From Candidatus Peregrinibacteria bacterium HGW-Peregrinibacteria-1 (GTDB lineage Bacteria; Patescibacteriota; Gracilibacteria; UBA1369; LOWO2-01-FULL-3), in assembly GCA_002839505.1 (NCBI GenBank), contig PGYE01000001.1, positions 230,459 to 294,458 on the forward strand: 64,000 nucleotides of DNA, written 5' to 3'. This document shows positions 17,288 to 45,844 of the stretch, in pieces. The position numbers and the translations under genes are program-made. Below the pieces are notes generated by a model that was not told the DNA's origin, did not search any database, and saw nothing but the letters and a program-made list of their open reading frames with translations. Position 1 is the stretch's first letter. Each line of letters opens with the position of its first letter.

Positions 17288-20200
17288 ATGAAAAACGCAA
17301 AGCTCTATTTAGTAGCTCTGGTGCTGGCACTAGCACCACTTTTTCCAATCACATCCAACGCAATCCTTGTCGACGGGTCCAACGCAGTCGACATGCTCGG
17401 ATTTTATGATGACAACCTTGAAAATCCTTCCCCTGCTTGGGACAAGGTCGACCCCAATGTGCGTAATGGCGGAACCAATCGCCTTGGTATAAGCATTAGC
17501 ACTTCACAGGCAGCCCTTGATTCGGTAAACAATCGATACTTTCTCTTAGACAATGGAAATAACCGTGTCCTTGTGTACAACCTTAATCCTGACAACACTT
17601 TTCCCGATAAAATCCCCGATAATGTAATAGGACAACCCAACTTCTACACAAACACCTCTGCGGTTACGCAGTCCGGACTTAACAGTCCTTCAGGATTAGC
17701 ATATGACGCCATAAATAACCGATTATTTGTCTCTGCTGGCTATGGTATGGCCGGAGGAGCTAGTAGGGTTATGGTATATGATGTCAGCACCATTGAAAAC
17801 GGGCAAGACGCTATCGCTGTACTTGGGCAAGCTAATTTTACCTCCACTGATTCAGCGGTAACAATATCGGGCTTACATGGACCACGCGGGCTTGCATATG
17901 ATGCTGTTAATGAGCGTTTATTTGTAGCACAACAACAGGGGCATAGAGTCAGCATATTTGATGTATCTGAAATAACCAATGGTGAGCCTGCCGTTAATGT
18001 CTTAGGCCAGGTAGATTTCACGTCCAGTACGGGGGCGACTACTGCCGCTGGTCTCAGCAACCCACTTGGCTTGGCATATGATTCTGGCAAAGGTCTTCTA
18101 TTTGTGTCTCAACACGGATTTGGGGGCGCGAGTGGTCCTGCCGCTAATAGAGTTAGTGTTTTTGATGTCAATGTCATAGCCAACGGCGAGGCCGCCGCTA
18201 ATGTTCTCGGGCAAACCCTCTTTACGACTGGTACAGGCGCTGTCACACAGGCTGGCATGTCTGGTCCCAGAGGAATTGCCCACGATCCTGTTAGAGACTA
18301 TCTGTTTGTCTCTAACAGCAGCAGGGTCACGGTCTATGATGTCGCAGCAATAACAAATGGAGAGAATGCCATTGCTGTACTAGGACAAGCGGATTTTACA
18401 TCAAGCACAGGGGGATCTACACAGACAGGCTTATACGGACCAAGTGGTCTAGTATATGATACCGAAAATGATCATTTATTAGTCCTTGACGATAGTAATA
18501 ACCGAGTCATGATCTTTGATGTTGCAACTATTGATAATGGGGAACCAGCTGTCGACCTTATAGGGCAATATGGTGATGACTTACTGAATCCAGAACCCGT
18601 CTACACAAAGAGTGGAGCTAATAATGCCCCCGGCAAGCTTGGATTCAATATTGATCCCTATTATTCCAGTGTTGTACTGGATGATGTCAACCACAGATTT
18701 TTTGTAACAGATACTCAAAATCACAGAGTGCTGGTATATGACCTAAATGAAGACAGCACCTTTCCCGATAGGATCCCCGATTATGTTCTCGGACAACCAA
18801 ACTTCTACTCCAATACTGCGGCCCTAACGCAAGAGGGAATGACCTATCCTCGTGGACTTGCCTATGACTCCGACAATAATCGCTTATTTGTCAGTGAAAG
18901 TACTGGCGCAAATAGAGTCAAAGTTTATGATGTCGCAGAAATAACTAATGGAGAGGCTGCAATTAATGTTCTTGGGCAGGCTGACTTTGTATCAGGAGTC
19001 GACGCTGTCACTCAGGACGGGATGCATAGCCCTATGGGTCTCGCCTATGATGCAACAAATCAAAGATTATTTGTCGCTCAAGACGAAGCCAGTAGGGTAA
19101 CTGTTTATGATGTTGCAGCAATAACTAATGGAGAGGCTGCAATTAATGTTCTTGGGCAGGCCGACTTTGAGACAGTAGATAATACAACCGCCATCAACAG
19201 AATGCGTGCCCCTAAAGGTCTCGCCTATGATGCCGAAAGCGACTTACTCTTTGTAACACAAGCTTCCAAACACCGAGTTACCGTCTATGATGTCGCAGAA
19301 ATAACCAATGGTGAAGATGCCATAGCTGTACTAGGACAACCCGATTTCACTTCTGCTGACGCTCTAACAACTCAGGATGGAATGTATGCTCCTGAAGGAA
19401 TAGCCTATGATCCTGACAACAAGAGATTATTTGTAGCCCAAACTGGATTCGGTGGAATTAGAATAACCGCATATAATGTTGCCGAAATTACCAATGGTGA
19501 AGCCGCTATCAATGTCCTTGGGCAGGCAGACTATGTTTCCGGTGACGACTCTTCGACACAATCCGGATTGAGATATCCGACCGGACTGGCTTACGATGCA
19601 ACCAACAACCGTCTATATGTAAATGATTCAGGCAATCACAGAGTCGTCGCATTTGATGTTGCCGTTGCAAACTCCCCCACCGAAGTAGCAGCCCAAGCAA
19701 ACGGCCCTAATGCCGCTAAGCTGACCTGGGACGCTAATGAAAACTTAGAAGAAACCGAATACCAGGTATACAACACCTCAACTTCCGAAGTAGTCGCCAC
19801 AACAACTAATACCAGCGCGGTAGTGGCAGGATTGACGCCAAGCACCGAATATACCTTCACAGTGAGAGCGATCTCACTTGCGGATGGAGAAAGTTATGTT
19901 GAATCCGAAGAGGTTTCAGTCACGACTGCTGCACTATCCACATCAATCACCATGACACTTGCGATTGGAGAATCAGCTGGATTCAGTTTTGCCGGAGTTG
20001 GAGAAGCACACACTGTTGCAATTGATGATATAGATGACAGTACACCGGAAGCACCAATCGCCGAAATGACAATCACATCAGAGCCTGTGACCGTAAATCT
20101 TGGAGTCGGATCCAGCGAGACAATCGACACCAACGGCGACGGACACAGCGAAACCACAGTACTAATCAACAGCGTTGACACCGGAAGCAACGAGGTAAAC

Positions 20201-24638: not shown

Positions 24639-25031
24639 TTAACGATCATCACCATTATTCTTATTAATATACTTCGCCAATTCTCTATCAAATGTTGCCA
24701 AAGGAACAGCTCTTTCTTTACTTTGCAACAATAAAACAGTATCAACAAACGATAGATTGTTTTTCACATCTCTAAAAAACGAAACGGCCTTCGACAGCTG
24801 TATCTCATCAATCTGCTCAATAAAAATTTTCAGATTATTCGTCAGAAAATCCGCACACCTATCCGCCACATCATGACCTTCCCTTATCTTTAGCACCGTC
24901 AAAACCTCAGAGAGTACATAATCAAACAAAAGAAAATCACTACCTGATTTCCAGATTGCAACCGCATCCCCGTGATGTTTTTCATTATTGCGGAACATCG
25001 CAATTATAATTGAACTATCAAGGATAATCAT
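24639..25031 (-). CDS. vapC: PIN-domain toxin (VapC-like)
   Basis: 130 aa. N-terminal MIILDSSIII with the acidic PIN residue. 4-bp ATGA overlap with the upstream small antitoxin-like ORF. Confidence 0.8.
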   Translation of the reverse strand: MIILDSSIIIAMFRNNEKHHGDAVAIWKSGSDFLLFDYVLSEVLTVLKIREGHDVADRCADFLTNNLKIFIEQIDEIQLSKAVSFFRDVKNNLSFVDTVLLLQSKERAVPLATFDRELAKYINKNNGDDR

Positions 25032-25282
25032 ACCTGGTAAATATATTTCTTATAACTTATCGCCAAATCATTCTCCTTTGTATTCTTACTGGAAAACACA
25101 AATTCCTCCAAATCCTTCATGCCATATTTTTTATCACCACTTGAAATATCATCAAAAGGCACGATTTTATACGCTGGTTTAGAATATTTCAAAACTACAT
25201 AAGTGTTGCCATTCTTCATTACATCATCACTCACTTTTTTGAAATTACCATAAATTTCTTTTGTAGAAACAAACTTTTCCAT
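25028..25282 (-). CDS. Antitoxin (Phd/YefM-like) paired with the PIN toxin
   Basis: 84-aa ORF translationally coupled to vapC. The N-terminal ...NFKKVSDDVMKNGNTYVVLKYSKPAYKIVPF... resembles Phd/YefM antitoxin folds. Confidence 0.65.
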   Translation of the reverse strand: MEKFVSTKEIYGNFKKVSDDVMKNGNTYVVLKYSKPAYKIVPFDDISSGDKKYGMKDLEEFVFSSKNTKENDLAISYKKYIYQV

Positions 25283-25353
25283 ATGTGATAGTTTAAATTA
25301 AAGTTGCAACTATATTTTAAACTATCGCCCCAACTTTTACAATCGAATAAACC

Positions 25354-26439
25354 CTACGCCTCCTGTTCCAACAATGCTCTCAAATCGCCGCCCTCCAGAA
25401 AATAATCTGCATACCGCTCAGCATCTTTCCAATTCTCCGCCTTCATCATCAGCTTCCTAAGCTCCCTCGCACCATCAAAACCCTTGCAATACCAGGTCAA
25501 ATGCTTCCGCATATGATGAAAATTCCACCTTCTCTCAATCTCATCAAAATAACGACAATGCTCCACCGCAATTTTCAGCATCTCCGCAACACTTGGCTCT
25601 TTACCATCAAAAAACCACGGCGCCCCAAAAGTCGCCCTCCCTACCAAAACGCCATCCAAATCATATTTTGCCACCTTCTCTCTGGCATCTTCCATCGAAC
25701 TCACATCGCCATTCCCCAAATAGCTCACCCCCGCCTTCCGGCACACCACCCCAGCCCTGGCAATCTCATCCCAATCCGCACTTCCCATATACATCTGTTT
25801 CAAAGTACGACCATGCATCGTAATATTTGCCGGCTCCACTTCCAAAAGATGCTTCACCCACTCCTCCGCAATCGCCACATCATAACCAATTCTCGTCTTC
25901 ACCGAAACCGGCCTTAAAACCCGCGGCACATCTTCCGGCTTCTTCCCTCTTTTTTCCAACATCACCGCAACCTCATTAATAATTCTCGGATGCAAACCCG
26001 CCTCCTCCAAAGTAATCCCATTACTCCAATCCAAAGCCGCCCTCTTACAACTCCTCACAATATCTTTCGCCAAATCCGGAGTCCGAATCAGTCCAGCCCC
26101 CGAACCCCGCTTTGCCACCTTATTTGCCGGACAACCCATATTGATATCAACCCCATCAAACCCCAACGCGCACAGCATCACACTGGCCTTATAAAAAGAA
26201 TCCACCTCCACACCATAAATTTGCCCCACCACTGGGCGCTCAATTTCTGAATAGTCAAAAGCTATCATCATCGTCTTCGCGCCCCTCGCCAAACCCTCCA
26301 CATTCGTAAACTCCGTAATCGACACACTCGGACTACCATACTTCGCAAACATATAACGATACGAAGAATCCGTCACCCCATCCATCGGCGCCAACCCTAT
26401 TATCGGCCTCTTTAATGTCTTCCAAAAATTCATAAACAA
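25354..26439 (-). CDS. dus: tRNA-dihydrouridine synthase
   Basis: 361 aa. LAPMDGVTDSSYR, DINMGCP and TMHGRT motifs of the Dus family. Confidence 0.9.
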   Translation of the reverse strand: MFMNFWKTLKRPIIGLAPMDGVTDSSYRYMFAKYGSPSVSITEFTNVEGLARGAKTMMIAFDYSEIERPVVGQIYGVEVDSFYKASVMLCALGFDGVDINMGCPANKVAKRGSGAGLIRTPDLAKDIVRSCKRAALDWSNGITLEEAGLHPRIINEVAVMLEKRGKKPEDVPRVLRPVSVKTRIGYDVAIAEEWVKHLLEVEPANITMHGRTLKQMYMGSADWDEIARAGVVCRKAGVSYLGNGDVSSMEDAREKVAKYDLDGVLVGRATFGAPWFFDGKEPSVAEMLKIAVEHCRYFDEIERRWNFHHMRKHLTWYCKGFDGARELRKLMMKAENWKDAERYADYFLEGGDLRALLEQEA

Positions 26440-26495
26440 ACATTTATATCGGCGATATTTCTACCAGTAAAAAACAAAAATGGCAACTTGCTGTA

Positions 26496-26773
26496 GTGCA
26501 ATCTTATTCTATTTGGGCGTATCGGAGCCTTTGCGGGCCGGTGCCTTTCACAGGCTAATTAAAATAATCTTCGCCAAATACTTATTTTGCGTCATTGCGA
26601 TTAGGTCAAGTGATCATGTATCACGAGACCTGGGCAAGGCGTACATGTTAGCCGCAGCCCACTTAATCGCTGAGAGCAAAATAAGTATGGCGAAGATTAT
26701 CTAAAAGGCGAGATCTGAGGTGCAATTTCCCGCTGGGGAAATTGACACCGTCCCAAGAAGAATAAGATTGCAC
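26496..26773 (+). ncRNA. Candidate unclassified structured RNA (~278 nt); strand uncertain
   Basis: Nested helices. P1 is 26496-26517 / 26752-26773 (15+6 bp). P2 is 26564-26590 / 26676-26700 (25 bp with an AA bulge). P3 is 26597-26603 / 26664-26670, enclosing two hairpins. There is also a 13-bp hairpin at 26719-26749. One U-G pair (26512/26757) favours the + strand. No convincing ORF. Confidence 0.45.
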
Positions 26774-26850
26774 ACCTCCCTACCTTGACATAAAAAGAAC
26801 TTATCTTTATTTTTCAAAAGCCTAATTATTATCACCTAAAGCATCTACCA

Positions 26851-27444
26851 ATGACCAAAATTTCCCGAGCATCAATAGATGAATTTGACGCTCCCGAGCC
26901 ATTGGATCACTTTGATCAACTCAGCCATCTCACCGAAGGACATGAAAACACCGCCGAACTTACTGACCTTCAACTTATCGGTCTAATTGAAAGCAATTCG
27001 ACAATCCCCACAGCTGCTCGATTATCACAGCAGATTATTAGTGGACTCAAAGAACAATTCCGTCACATAACAATTGTTACTGAACAAAAAAAAGCCGATA
27101 ACCTGACCACAATTAATTTGATTAAAGCTGTTAGCAAAACAAAACACAGTGCCGACCTGCTAGAGCTTTACAGGTCAGAAGACGACTTGATTGCTCAAGA
27201 ACGCCTTCAAGCCGCACAAGCAGCGACAAATCATCAAATATTTCATACTTTCGATGCCGATTCAGAGCCTGCCACCTTTTACTCTCGTGATGCCAAAGAA
27301 GCCGCTCTCAAAGCCCGTCGTATTGATCGAACAGTTACTACTAAACTCCGAGAACTTCATGCTGCAATAAAGAGTTTGGACCATCAAGCTCTACAACAAA
27401 AGCTTCAACTTCTCAGGGGGGCGCGGGAAAGAAACACTCAATAA
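26851..27444 (+). CDS. Hypothetical hydrophilic protein (197 aa)
   Basis: Clean ORF in a gene-sized slot, preceded by TTGACA at 26784-26789. Helical, Gln/Ala/Leu-rich, no recognisable domain. Confidence 0.55.
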   Translation: MTKISRASIDEFDAPEPLDHFDQLSHLTEGHENTAELTDLQLIGLIESNSTIPTAARLSQQIISGLKEQFRHITIVTEQKKADNLTTINLIKAVSKTKHSADLLELYRSEDDLIAQERLQAAQAATNHQIFHTFDADSEPATFYSRDAKEAALKARRIDRTVTTKLRELHAAIKSLDHQALQQKLQLLRGARERNTQ

Positions 27445-27555
27445 AACACTCCGCCGATTAAGATTTTGAATTATCCGCCGAAATATACTAAGCTAAAACT
27501 AGGTTAGTATATTTCCATATACTTCCTCATCTCATTTCTCTTATTAAATCGGTTT

Positions 27556-44980: not shown

Positions 44981-45079
44981 AGAGGAGTGGTCGATATATA
45001 AATAAAAACAAGGATAAAAACATTATCCTTAACAGAAGCAACAAAATCAATCTTCTTGTACGAGCTATCACTGTTTATT

Positions 45080-45131
45080 CAAATCTTGCAATCAAATGTC
45101 TTGTGGTGTCGACATTTGATTGCAAGATTTG
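45080..45131. promoter_or_regulatory. Perfect 21-bp inverted repeat (10-nt spacer) upstream of the HTH gene
   Basis: caaatcttgcaatcaaatgtc (45080-45100) is the exact reverse complement of gacatttgattgcaagatttg (45111-45131). It lies in a divergent promoter region. TATAAT is at 45164-45169. Confidence 0.6.
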
Positions 45132-45175
45132 TCCACTTTGTCTATAGTTTGTCGTGTCGACAGTATAATATTTCT

Positions 45176-45844
45176 ATGTCTACTATGACAAACAATGAAA
45201 AATACAATTTAAGTAGAGCAAAAGCCGCAAAACTGCTTGGAGTCTCGGTTAGGACGGTAGACAGATATATAGCCGGCAAAAAACTGTCTATAGAGCGTAT
45301 TGATGGCAGAATATGGTTAAGCGAACACGAGGTTTTAGCTTTTAATAAGGGTTCAGGTGTAGTCGACAGCAGCGGCGGTAACAGCAAGGACAGAGTAGAC
45401 AAGCACATGCACGGAAGTAGACAATACGTCGACACTGTCCATGACAGTGTCGACGTCGTCAATATAGACACTGTCGACATTATGTCTAGACATGACAAGG
45501 GTAAAGAAAGGCCAACTACCAATTTTTATGAAAAGCTGTACCACAGTACAAAAAAGGAACTTAATCAGAAGCAAGAACGCTTAGAGATTGCTAATTACCG
45601 CGTTGGGCAACTTGAGGCCCAGATCAAAAATAGTATTTCAATGCTTGAATATCATCAGCAAAACAGCGAGGAGTTTCAGAAAATGAAACTCCTCGCTGCC
45701 AATATTACCGAAAACAAAGATAAATTTGATGCACTCAAAAGGGAAGTAAGATACGAAAGGCTCAACAAAAAAATTCTTGCCATTGTACTATTATTTTTGC
45801 TGGCATTACAGCCAATTTGGATCTTGTTAGTCTACAAAAGCTGA
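45176..45844 (+). CDS. Membrane-anchored DNA-binding protein (excisionase/MerR-type HTH + coiled coil + C-terminal TM)
   Basis: ATG 45176 lies 6 nt after TATAAT, so the transcript is probably leaderless. HTH is LSRAKAAKLLGVSVRTVDRYIAGKKLSIERIDGRIWL. Coiled coil (QERLEIANYRVGQLEAQIK). Terminal TM is ILAIVLLFLLALQPIWILLVY. The ORF-track start 45056 runs through the inverted repeat. Confidence 0.7.
   Translation: MSTMTNNEKYNLSRAKAAKLLGVSVRTVDRYIAGKKLSIERIDGRIWLSEHEVLAFNKGSGVVDSSGGNSKDRVDKHMHGSRQYVDTVHDSVDVVNIDTVDIMSRHDKGKERPTTNFYEKLYHSTKKELNQKQERLEIANYRVGQLEAQIKNSISMLEYHQQNSEEFQKMKLLAANITENKDKFDALKREVRYERLNKKILAIVLLFLLALQPIWILLVYKS

What the first reader, a model, noticed from the sequence alone, without database searches (positions are those of the whole stretch)
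26496..26773. ~280-nt intergenic element with nested long-range helices: candidate unclassified structured RNA
The 411-nt gap between dus and the 26851 ORF has no credible coding potential, but it shows an elaborate set of mutually compatible pairings. P1: GTGCAATCTTATTCT-A-TTTGGG (26496-26517) pairs with CCCAAG-A-AGAATAAGATTGCAC (26752-26773). P2: ATAATCTTCGCCAAATACTTATTTTGC (26564-26590) pairs with GCAAAATAAGTATGGCGAAGATTAT (26676-26700), giving 25 bp with an AA bulge. P3: GCGATTA (26597-26603) pairs with TAATCGC (26664-26670) and encloses two hairpins (26604-26630 and 26632-26660). A small hairpin AGCCT/AGGCT sits in the 5' junction at about 26527-26556. A 13-bp hairpin GGTGCAATTTCCC/GGGAAATTG-ACACC sits in the 3' junction (26719-26749). 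This is a multi-branched architecture, not a simple palindrome. I looked for and did not find the SRP domain IV motif, the RNase P CR-I/CR-IV pairing, a tmRNA T-arm/CCA end, or riboswitch cores I know (TPP, FMN, cobalamin, lysine). The helices are unusually long and nearly perfect for a classical ncRNA, which is itself odd.
Basis: seen in the sequence. Interest (0 to 1): 0.72.

Follow-up and report, generated by a model that had tools for sequence, protein, structure and literature searches.

The report
Branched 278-nt foldback repeat beside dus
A 278-base stretch between two genes of a tiny groundwater bacterium (Peregrinibacteria) really does fold into an exceptionally stable branched hairpin. 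A second, diverged copy keeps that fold, so the structure matters, but it looks more like a rare palindromic repeat element than a classical RNA gene.

Summary
The nested pairings at 26496-26773 are real. This is the most stable 280-nt stretch in the 64-kb window (RNA z = -10.7, DNA z = -12.1) and is sharply bounded by unstructured, AT-rich flanks. It matches no Rfam family.

It is not a conserved dus leader. Relatives have 10-170 nt upstream of dus, and the closest one has xfp and dus only 64 nt apart. The element and the orphan ORF197 are therefore extra DNA in this lineage.

A called 74-aa ORF across the element served as a proxy for finding copies. It has exactly one relative among 5.8 billion proteins: PKL36634.1, from the 998,424-bp complete Horonobe Peregrinibacterium genome, which also encodes this window's exact Dus. 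That relative matches the element in two reading frames, so the DNA is conserved, not a protein.

Its amino-acid differences force 14 substitutions. Two are double, pair-preserving changes (P2 G-C to A-T; hairpin H1 G-C to T-A; chance about 0.004).

The helices are almost purely Watson-Crick (3 G.U in 104 pairs). Both strands fold equally well. There is no target-site duplication, and no promoter or terminator that clearly belongs to the element.

Best reading: a low-copy, species-restricted foldback repeat whose fold is maintained and which probably acts in cis as RNA. A new stand-alone ncRNA remains possible.

The parts
26496..26773 (.). Whole element: a 278-nt branched quasi-palindrome. 46% GC and GC skew +0.07, inside a 31% GC intergenic region of a genome whose skew is -0.28.
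26496..26517 (.). P1 5' arm. Pairs with 26752-26773 as 15 + 6 bp around a 1-nt offset, with one T.G at 26512/26757.
   Evidence: (I1)
26752..26773 (.). P1 3' arm.
   Evidence: (I1)
26522..26532 (.). P1b 5' strand. Pairs with 26704-26718 (5 + 6 bp).
26704..26718 (.). P1b 3' strand.
26536..26556 (.). Side hairpin Hs (4 + 3 bp). Its 3' half falls in the indel-rich, poorly conserved stretch of the second copy.
26564..26590 (.). P2 5' arm (13 + 12 bp with an AA bulge). 26573 G>A in copy 2 is compensated by 26691 C>T.
   Evidence: (I2, I3)
26676..26700 (.). P2 3' arm.
26597..26603 (.). P3 5' strand (7 bp with 26664-26670).
   Evidence: (I6)
26664..26670 (.). P3 3' strand.
26604..26630 (.). Hairpin H1 (4 + 5 bp, loop CATGT). 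The closing pair 26604 G - 26630 C becomes T-A in copy 2 (compensatory).
26631..26661 (.). Hairpin H2 (5 + 3 bp, loop containing ACATGT). It lies in the stretch whose translation is identical in the two copies.
26719..26749 (.). Hairpin H3 (4 + 9 bp, loop GCTG).
   Evidence: (I9)
26480..26704 (+). 74-aa ORF (P0122) called by gene finders across the element. It was used as a proxy to find copies. Its only relative switches reading frame, so it is not conserved as a protein.
25354..26433 (-). dus (tRNA-dihydrouridine synthase), the left neighbour, transcribed away from the element. Alignment to relatives supports the 359-aa start at 26433.
26851..27444 (+). Orphan ORF197, the right neighbour. 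It has no homologue and no family match, and the structure model is low-confidence and all-helical. Together with the element it is extra DNA compared with the closest relative.
26785..26813 (+). Best promoter-like site (TTGACA-17-TATTTT, 10 of 12). It lies downstream of the element and faces ORF197.
26828..26857 (-). Weaker promoter-like site (TGGTCA-18-GATAAT, 9 of 12). If used, it would transcribe the element's minus strand as a dus leader.

Best explanation
This is a species-restricted, low-copy foldback repeat: a 278-nt branched quasi-palindrome present in at least two diverged copies in the roughly 1-Mb genome of the Horonobe Peregrinibacterium. This copy lies in lineage-specific extra DNA (element plus orphan ORF197) between dus and xfp.

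Its hairpin fold in single-stranded form is being maintained. Most likely it is read into a neighbour's transcript, with the dus leader from the minus-strand promoter-like site as the best candidate. There it would act in cis as a long double-stranded RNA module: an RNase III-type processing or stability determinant. It is probably not a trans-acting RNA gene.

Shown: the structure, its sharp boundaries, the absence of any Rfam family match, its absence from relatives, the existence of a diverged homologue, and two pair-preserving double substitutions.

Inferred: that the homologue is a second locus in the same genome, that the element is transcribed, on which strand, and the processing or stability role.
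For: Structure:
- The structure is confirmed and is extreme on both strands and with DNA parameters.
- Only 3 of 104 pairs are G.U, and neither strand is preferred. That is typical of DNA-level palindromic repeats.
- It is a GC-rich, zero-skew island in an AT-rich intergenic region.

Context:
- The closest relative, L004, has xfp and dus divergent with 64 nt between them. Other relatives have 10-170 nt upstream of dus. The element plus ORF197 are therefore extra DNA.
- ORF197 has no homologue anywhere.

Second copy:
- The only relative of the element-spanning ORF is PKL36634.1, on the 998,424-bp contig that also encodes the window's exact 359-aa Dus.
- That genome is the curated complete Horonobe genome, and its populations share 99.997% ANI.
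- The dus-locus allele is identical in 9 assemblies.
- Logan contigs end inside the element at 26542 and 26727, as expected if its interior shares 31-mers with another locus.
- 14 forced substitutions were inferred. They include 26573/26691 G-C>A-T and 26604/26630 G-C>T-A, and the remaining changes inside the fold, apart from two single-sided changes at helix ends, fall in a loop, a bulge or a junction. The chance of two or more compensatory pairs is 0.003-0.005.

Precedent: bacterial palindromic repeats are known to give long stem-loop transcripts that regulate adjacent mRNAs and bind or are cut by RNase III (PMC2229807, PMC2649163, PMC10969869).
Against: - There is no target-site duplication and no TA at both ends.
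- The two outermost-but-one bases of the left arm differ in copy 2. A transposase-recognised end would be expected to be conserved.
- Only about two copies are known, and there is none other in 84 kb.
- The architecture is branched rather than a simple stem-loop.
- Similarity to copy 2 seems to run a few bases beyond the left arm.
- No transcription data exist, and the minus-strand promoter match is weak.
- The DNA of copy 2 was never seen. Its sequence is inferred from a protein.
Confidence: 0.4

Rival explanations
1. A new stand-alone structured non-coding RNA of about 280 nt, with at least two paralogous genes, specific to this Peregrinibacteria lineage. It would act in trans, for example as a rod-like RNA that binds or sequesters a protein.
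For: - The fold is branched and sharply bounded.
- Two compensatory double substitutions were found, and the other forced changes fall in a loop, a bulge, a junction or at helix ends.
- It is a GC-rich island in an AT-rich intergenic region.
- There is no target-site duplication.
- CAUG is kept in the loops of both H1 and H2 in both copies.
- No Rfam family matches, so it would be new.
Against: - Helices of 22-25 near-perfect Watson-Crick pairs with 3% G.U are unusual for an old RNA family and would be RNase III substrates.
- Both strands fold equally well.
- The single-sided changes give conflicting strand signals. Copy 1 has three G.U pairs on the plus strand, while the two single-sided changes in copy 2 are wobble-compatible only on the minus strand.
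- There is no promoter upstream on the plus strand and no terminator on either strand.
- No homologue exists outside this one species.
Confidence: 0.3
2. A DNA-level site that belongs to a small integrated cassette (element plus ORF197). Examples are a recombination or attachment site, or a single-strand origin that folds as single-stranded DNA.
For: - The element and the orphan ORF197 together are the extra DNA compared with L004.
- The fold is just as extreme with DNA parameters.
- Pairing is almost purely Watson-Crick and strand-symmetric.
- The upstream side of dus is a synteny breakpoint in relatives.
Against: - ORF197 has no recombinase, replication or any other family signal.
- ORF197 has no paralogue that could accompany copy 2.
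- No matches were found in plasmid, phage or viral collections.
- The spacers of 85-234 nt between arms make cruciform extrusion from duplex DNA unlikely (inference).
Confidence: 0.12
3. A small-protein gene with a highly structured mRNA, resembling a type I toxin of the hok kind with 5'-3' end pairing.
For: - A 74-aa ORF is called in every assembly and a 72-aa ORF is called in copy 2.
- It contains a hydrophobic stretch, IIFAKYLFCVIAI.
- Low copy number, narrow distribution and long-range end pairing resemble type I toxin loci (my own knowledge).
Against: - The two ORFs share their N-terminal DNA in different reading frames.
- The shared frame has no start codon in copy 1 before 26645.
- The hydrophobic stretch is too short for a membrane helix and contains lysine.
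- A 25-bp inverted repeat lies inside the supposed coding region.
- No family matched.
Confidence: 0.04

Closest known systems
Bacterial intergenic palindromic repeats / MITE-like elements (Correia/CREE of Neisseria, ERIC, RUP, YPAL, Caulobacter CIR)
   Same: - Non-coding and intergenic.
- Terminal inverted repeats of 22 nt, similar to the 24 bp of Correia elements.
- The predicted transcript is a very stable stem-loop closed by 5'-3' end pairing.
- An open reading frame is called across it.
- More than one copy probably exists.
- Such elements are known to affect neighbouring mRNAs and to be RNase III targets (PMC2229807, PMC2649163, PMC10969869).
   Different: - 278 nt against about 100-200 nt.
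- Branched, with three junction hairpins and a two-hairpin tip.
- No target-site duplication and no TA termini.
- Not AT-rich.
- Only about two diverged copies.
- The terminal bases of the arm are not conserved between copies.
- No cognate IS element is known.
- CIR and YPAL also only partly fit the MITE definition, so the resemblance is to that looser group.
Long structured bacterial ncRNAs found as GC-rich intergenic islands (Rfam classes such as OLE, ROOL, GOLLD, HEARO and raiA; my own knowledge)
   Same: - A GC-rich island in an AT-rich intergenic region.
- A multi-helix fold.
- Pair-preserving substitutions between homologues.
   Different: - No covariance-model match to any of 4227 families.
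- The helices are far longer and more perfect.
- Almost no G.U pairs.
- No strand asymmetry.
- Known from one species only.
hok-type type I toxin mRNAs
   Same: - A transcript-sized unit of about 280 nt.
- The two ends pair with each other.
- Low copy number and narrow distribution.
- Overlaps a small ORF.
   Different: - The ORF is not conserved in frame between copies.
- It lacks a usable start codon.
- It is not convincingly hydrophobic.

Membership tests
Bacterial MITE (definition in PMC2229807 and PMC10969869) | Terminal inverted repeats | tested here: met
   22-nt arms at 26496-26517 / 26752-26773, 91% complementary.
Bacterial MITE | Target-site duplication (direct repeats) flanking the inverted repeats | tested here: not met
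   The flanks are ...GCTGTA|GTGCAAT and ATTGCAC|ACCTCC. No shared word of 5 nt or more lies in the 15-nt flanks either side of the ends; the longest shared word is a 4-mer that does not abut either end.
Bacterial MITE | 5'-TA-3' at both termini, and AT-rich composition | tested here: not met
   TA is present only on the left flank. The element is 46% GC, against 31% in the flanking intergenic DNA and 44% in the window.
Bacterial MITE | Multiple dispersed copies in the genome | tested here: inconclusive
   Only one copy was found in 84 kb. One diverged copy is inferred from PKL36634.1 on the same species' complete genome. The rest of the genome could not be read.
Bacterial MITE | A cognate IS element with matching terminal repeats | not testable with these tools
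   No further match to the arm exists in the window. The whole genome and ISfinder were not available.
Bacterial MITE | The transcript folds into a long, stable stem-loop | tested here: met
   MFE -132 kcal/mol, z = -10.7. This is a prediction only.
Any Rfam 15 family (including 6S, SRP, RNase P, tmRNA, riboswitches, ribozymes and Y RNA) | Covariance-model match | tested here: not met
   The only matches at gathering score are three tRNAs elsewhere in the window. At E<=10 there is nothing inside 26496-26773.
Structured ncRNA (general criteria) | Covariation that supports the helices | tested here: inconclusive
   Two compensatory pairs (P2 and H1) were found between two copies, with chance about 0.004. 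There are only two sequences and one is inferred from a protein. P1, P1b and H3 of copy 2 were not seen.
Structured ncRNA (general criteria) | Conservation in related genomes | tested here: not met
   No BLAST or covariance-model hit in 84 loci (653 kb) around dus from relatives. Pattern and ORF-proxy scans were empty. Caveat: the nearest sampled relative has only 64-66% Dus identity.
Structured ncRNA (general criteria) | Defined transcript, strand and ends | not testable with these tools
   Only consensus scans were possible. They found no terminator and one weak minus-strand promoter-like site.
Type I toxin-antitoxin (hok-like) | A small hydrophobic ORF conserved in frame, with a start codon | tested here: not met
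   The reading frame switches between copies. The shared frame has no start codon before 26645.
Retron msr-msd | An adjacent reverse-transcriptase gene | tested here: not met
   The neighbours are Dus, a PIN protein, an 84-aa ORF, ORF197 and XFP. None has an RT domain.
Diversity-generating retroelement TR/VR pair | Differences between the two repeats confined to adenines of one copy | tested here: not met
   The forced changes include G>A, G>T, C>A, C>T and T>C as well as changes at A.

The most novel reading that the evidence does not exclude
The element is the founding member of a new class of large structured RNA confined to a Peregrinibacteria (CPR) lineage. It would be encoded by at least two paralogous genes. 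Its rod of long helices with conserved CAUG loops would serve a trans function, for example sequestering a double-strand-binding protein or dimerising through kissing loops, in an organism with a minimal, symbiont-like genome.
Probability: 0.25. Interest if true: 0.6.

Novelty: new variant of a known kind. Interest (0 to 1): 0.4.

Why it matters
If the fold is truly under selection, it is a rare case of a maintained nucleic-acid structure in a 1-Mb CPR genome that has little room for non-functional DNA. It also persists in a genome with extreme strand compositional bias, which should erode palindromes. That makes it a concrete and cheap target. One BLAST against the published complete genome and one look at Horonobe metatranscriptomes would decide between a selfish repeat, a cis-acting RNA module and a new ncRNA.

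If it is simply a low-copy foldback repeat, it is ordinary. Its main value is then practical: it breaks short-k assemblies and creates spurious ORF annotations.

Tried and rejected
Searches that found nothing:
- Rfam at gathering score and at E<=10.
- Other copies in the window by mismatch search, BLAST with 9-nt words and a 278-position covariance model. Only the element itself was found.
- A copy within 10 kb beyond each end of the window.
- Exact-pattern scans: the outer arm in metagenome contigs and the inner arm in GTDB genome contigs. These collections evidently do not hold this genome, so the scans say nothing about copy number.
- ORF-proxy scans of metagenome and viral contigs, three conserved cores in viral contigs, and blastn against plasmids and phages.
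- Retrieving the DNA of copy 2: PKL36634.1 is not in the contig index.

Hypotheses rejected:
- Conserved dus leader or riboswitch. Relatives have short, unrelated upstream regions.
- Replication origin or terminus. GC skew is uniformly negative across the window.
- Nested insertion of one MITE into another. Copy 2 carries both the outer and the inner layers in the same arrangement. Any nesting therefore predates the duplication, and no duplications flank the inner arms.
- Simple inverted duplication. The side hairpins sit at non-mirror positions, as read directly from the coordinates of the fold.
- Retron, DGR, type III toxin-antitoxin and 6S RNA. See the membership tests for the first, second and last. 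There are no tandem direct repeats.

Leads that gave no information or rest on chance-level signals:
- ORF197 function: no Pfam, PHROG, NCBIfam or PADLOC match, and the AlphaFold model has pLDDT 44.
- The 9-nt match between H3 and the start of ORF197 (D6/I4) is at the level expected by chance.
- Strand assignment from wobble pairs gave conflicting signals.

Full report
**1. Observation**

- P1: 26496-26517 / 26752-26773, 22 nt, 91% complementary.
- P2: 26564-26590 / 26676-26700, 13 + 12 bp with an AA bulge.
- P3: 26597-26603 / 26664-26670.
- Two tip hairpins, 26604-26630 and 26631-26661, and a 13-bp hairpin at 26719-26749.

It is called P1b here and pairs 26522-26532 with 26704-26718.

The fold is far beyond chance.
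- RNA MFE is -132.4 kcal/mol against -77.6 +/- 5.1 for dinucleotide shuffles, z = -10.7.
- With DNA parameters z = -12.1 and the topology is the same.
- It is the most stable of 1594 sliding 280-nt windows in the 64 kb.
- It holds the only long-range inverted repeats with arms of 18 nt or more in the window.
- The flanking 60-90 nt on each side are unstructured, so the element is sharply bounded.
- It is also a compositional island: 46% GC and GC skew +0.07, inside 31% GC intergenic DNA of a window whose overall skew is -0.28.

**2. What argues for DNA-like palindromy**

- Of the 104 predicted pairs only 3 are G.U.
- The minus strand folds almost as well as the plus strand: -128.9 kcal/mol, z = -10.6.
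- A covariance model built on the plus strand still scores 67 bits on the minus strand.
- There is no intrinsic terminator on either strand and no promoter-like site upstream on the plus strand.
- The best promoter-like site (TTGACA-17-TATTTT, 26785-26813) lies after the element and faces ORF197.
- A weaker site on the minus strand (26857-26828) would place the element in a dus leader of about 390 nt.

**3. Known families**

Rfam 15 gives only three tRNAs elsewhere in the window at gathering score. At E<=10 nothing falls inside the element.

**4. Genomic context and organism**

- The left neighbour is dus. Alignment with relatives supports the 359-aa start at 26433.
- The right neighbour is a 197-aa ORF. 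It has no homologue among 5.8 billion proteins, no family match, and only a low-confidence helical model.
- xfp phosphoketolase follows ORF197.
- The best Dus relatives are Peregrinibacteria at no more than 66% identity.
- In the closest genome available (L004; Dus 64%, XFP 63%), xfp and dus are divergent neighbours separated by 64 nt.
- In four other relatives' loci (L085-L088) dus is followed directly by trmB. Its upstream region is variable and only 10-170 nt long.
- Neither BLAST nor the covariance model finds the element in 653 kb of relatives' dus neighbourhoods.

The element is therefore not a conserved dus leader. Together with ORF197 it is about 1.1 kb of lineage-specific extra DNA. 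The caveat is that no close relative has been sampled.

The window is identical to ENA and JGI contigs of 0.78-1.0 Mb. The species is the Horonobe underground-laboratory Peregrinibacterium. Its curated complete genome is 998,424 bp, and its populations share 99.997% ANI (PMC11657941). This explains why nine assemblies carry an identical element at this locus and why within-species variation cannot be used.

**5. A second copy**

Gene finders call a 74-aa ORF (26480-26704) across the element. I used its translation as a proxy to find copies.
- An exhaustive HMMER scan of 1.84 billion representatives found exactly one relative. A profile search of 5.8 billion proteins found the same one.
- That relative is P0123 = PKL36634.1 (CVV38_01890), a 72-aa hypothetical protein on a 998,424-bp NCBI contig.
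- The same contig encodes the window's exact 359-aa Dus.

P0123 matches the element in two different reading frames.
- NLILIGRIGAFAGRC corresponds to 26500-26544 in one frame.
- RIIFTYYLFCV...AESKISMVKIT corresponds to 26561-26701 in another frame.
- An indel-rich stretch of about 16 nt lies between them.

The DNA is therefore conserved, not a protein, and both the outer and the inner layers are present in the same arrangement.

Four points suggest P0123 is a second locus in the same genome rather than an allele.
- The dus-locus allele is invariant in nine assemblies of a nearly clonal population.
- P0122 itself is also in NCBI nr, most simply from the same annotated genome.
- Logan (k=31) contigs from Horonobe-type runs run smoothly from dus through the copy-1-specific bases and stop at 26542, which is 26512 + 30.
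- Another Logan contig starts at 26727, which is 26757 - 30.

That pattern is expected if the interior shares 31-mers with another locus while the flanks do not. The same contig's other end falls in a tRNA gene, another shared sequence. I put this reading at about 75-80%. The DNA of copy 2 could not be retrieved (and the empty scans).

**6. Structure is maintained between the copies**

The amino-acid differences force 14 nucleotide substitutions and one 3-nt insertion in 192 aligned nt. In the 26561-26701 part:

| Change in copy 2 | Location | Effect |
|---|---|---|
| 26573 G>A with 26691 C>T | partners in P2 | G-C becomes A-T (compensatory) |
| 26604 G>T with 26630 C>A | closing pair of H1 | G-C becomes T-A (compensatory) |
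| 26619 | loop | none on pairing |
| 26576 and 26578 | the P2 bulge | none on pairing |
| 26562 and the 3-nt insertion | junctions | none on pairing |
| 26597 G>A and 26700 T>C | ends of helices | single-sided |

A simulation placed 10 substitutions on the visible codon positions. It gives two or more compensatory pairs with probability 0.003-0.005.

In the outer arm, 26497, 26498 and 26512 differ, and their partners were not seen. The Logan contig ends point to 26757, the partner of 26512, as also variant.

Strand signals conflict. Copy 1 has three G.U pairs on the plus strand. The two single-sided changes in copy 2 would be wobbles only on the minus strand.

Selection on a single-stranded fold (RNA or ssDNA) explains the compensatory pairs. 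Template-switch correction within quasi-palindromes could mimic them (my own knowledge, not tested).

**7. Interpretation**

The facts fit best a low-copy, species-restricted foldback repeat whose fold is maintained. It is related in kind to the bacterial intergenic palindromic repeats (Correia/CREE, ERIC, YPAL, CIR). Their transcripts form long stem-loops, affect neighbouring mRNAs and interact with RNase III (PMC2229807, PMC2649163, PMC10969869).

It is not a canonical MITE.
- There is no target-site duplication and no TA at both ends, and it is not AT-rich.
- The terminal bases of the arm are not conserved between copies.
- Only about two copies are known.

I therefore describe it as working like such a repeat without filing it as a member.

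The most likely mode of action is cis, at the RNA level: a long double-stranded module in a neighbour's untranslated region, with the dus leader as the best candidate. This step is inferred.

A stand-alone new ncRNA is the main rival (0.3). A DNA-level site of a small cassette that includes ORF197 (0.12) and a small-protein or type I toxin gene (0.04) are less likely.

**8. Verdict**

Novelty: a new variant of a known kind, with roughly a one-in-four chance of being a genuinely new RNA class. Interest is moderate (0.4). The decisive test is trivial once the published complete genome and any transcript data can be read.

Noticed in passing
window 1-64000: GC skew is extreme and uniform: -0.278 overall, and -0.05 to -0.51 in all but one of the 2-kb windows (one is about 0). 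The plus strand is C-rich whatever the gene orientation (dus on the minus strand -0.54, xfp on the plus strand -0.27). Such strand disparity has been reported for another CPR genome (PMC7143001, title only).
   Followed up: partly
window 25287-25326 and 24639-25282: A 20 + 20 nt palindrome with no spacer lies directly upstream of an 84-aa ORF plus a PIN-domain gene (a vapBC-like pair). That pair is itself inserted between dus and trmB, which are adjacent in relatives. The palindrome is probably the operator of the toxin-antitoxin operon.
   Followed up: partly
window 45056-45844: A region called as a 262-aa ORF has weak excisionase/HTH matches. It contains three perfect hairpins (45080-45131, 21 bp; 45426-45456, 14 bp; 45664-45698, 15 bp) and many GTCGAC(A) motifs. 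These may be binding sites for an autoregulator. The region is unrelated in sequence to the element.
   Followed up: partly
window 27480-27515: A 16-bp hairpin (94% complementary, 4-nt loop) lies between the end of ORF197 and xfp. It has no U-tract.
   Followed up: no
window 18923-18989 and 19103-19169: A 67-nt direct repeat (95.5% identity) lies inside the 1220-aa gene for an SLH/fn3 surface protein.
   Followed up: no
window 26774-26782: Directly after the 3' arm of P1 the plus strand reads ACCTCCCTA. On the minus strand that is a GGGAGG Shine-Dalgarno-like motif abutting a GTG. The three neighbouring genes inspected (dus, ORF197, xfp) show no such motif upstream.
   Followed up: no
L092 6780-6860 (about 3 kb beyond the window end): The Logan contig that begins inside the element (26727) ends inside a tRNA gene. 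This shows that these contigs break at sequences shared with other DNA in the sample.
   Followed up: yes
window 26523-26548 and 26704-26709: The direct repeat CGGAGCCTTT / CGGTGCCTTT means that AAAGGC (26704-26709) could pair with either GCCTTT copy. AGCCT could instead pair with AGGCT (26552-26556). These are mutually exclusive alternative pairings inside the element.
   Followed up: no
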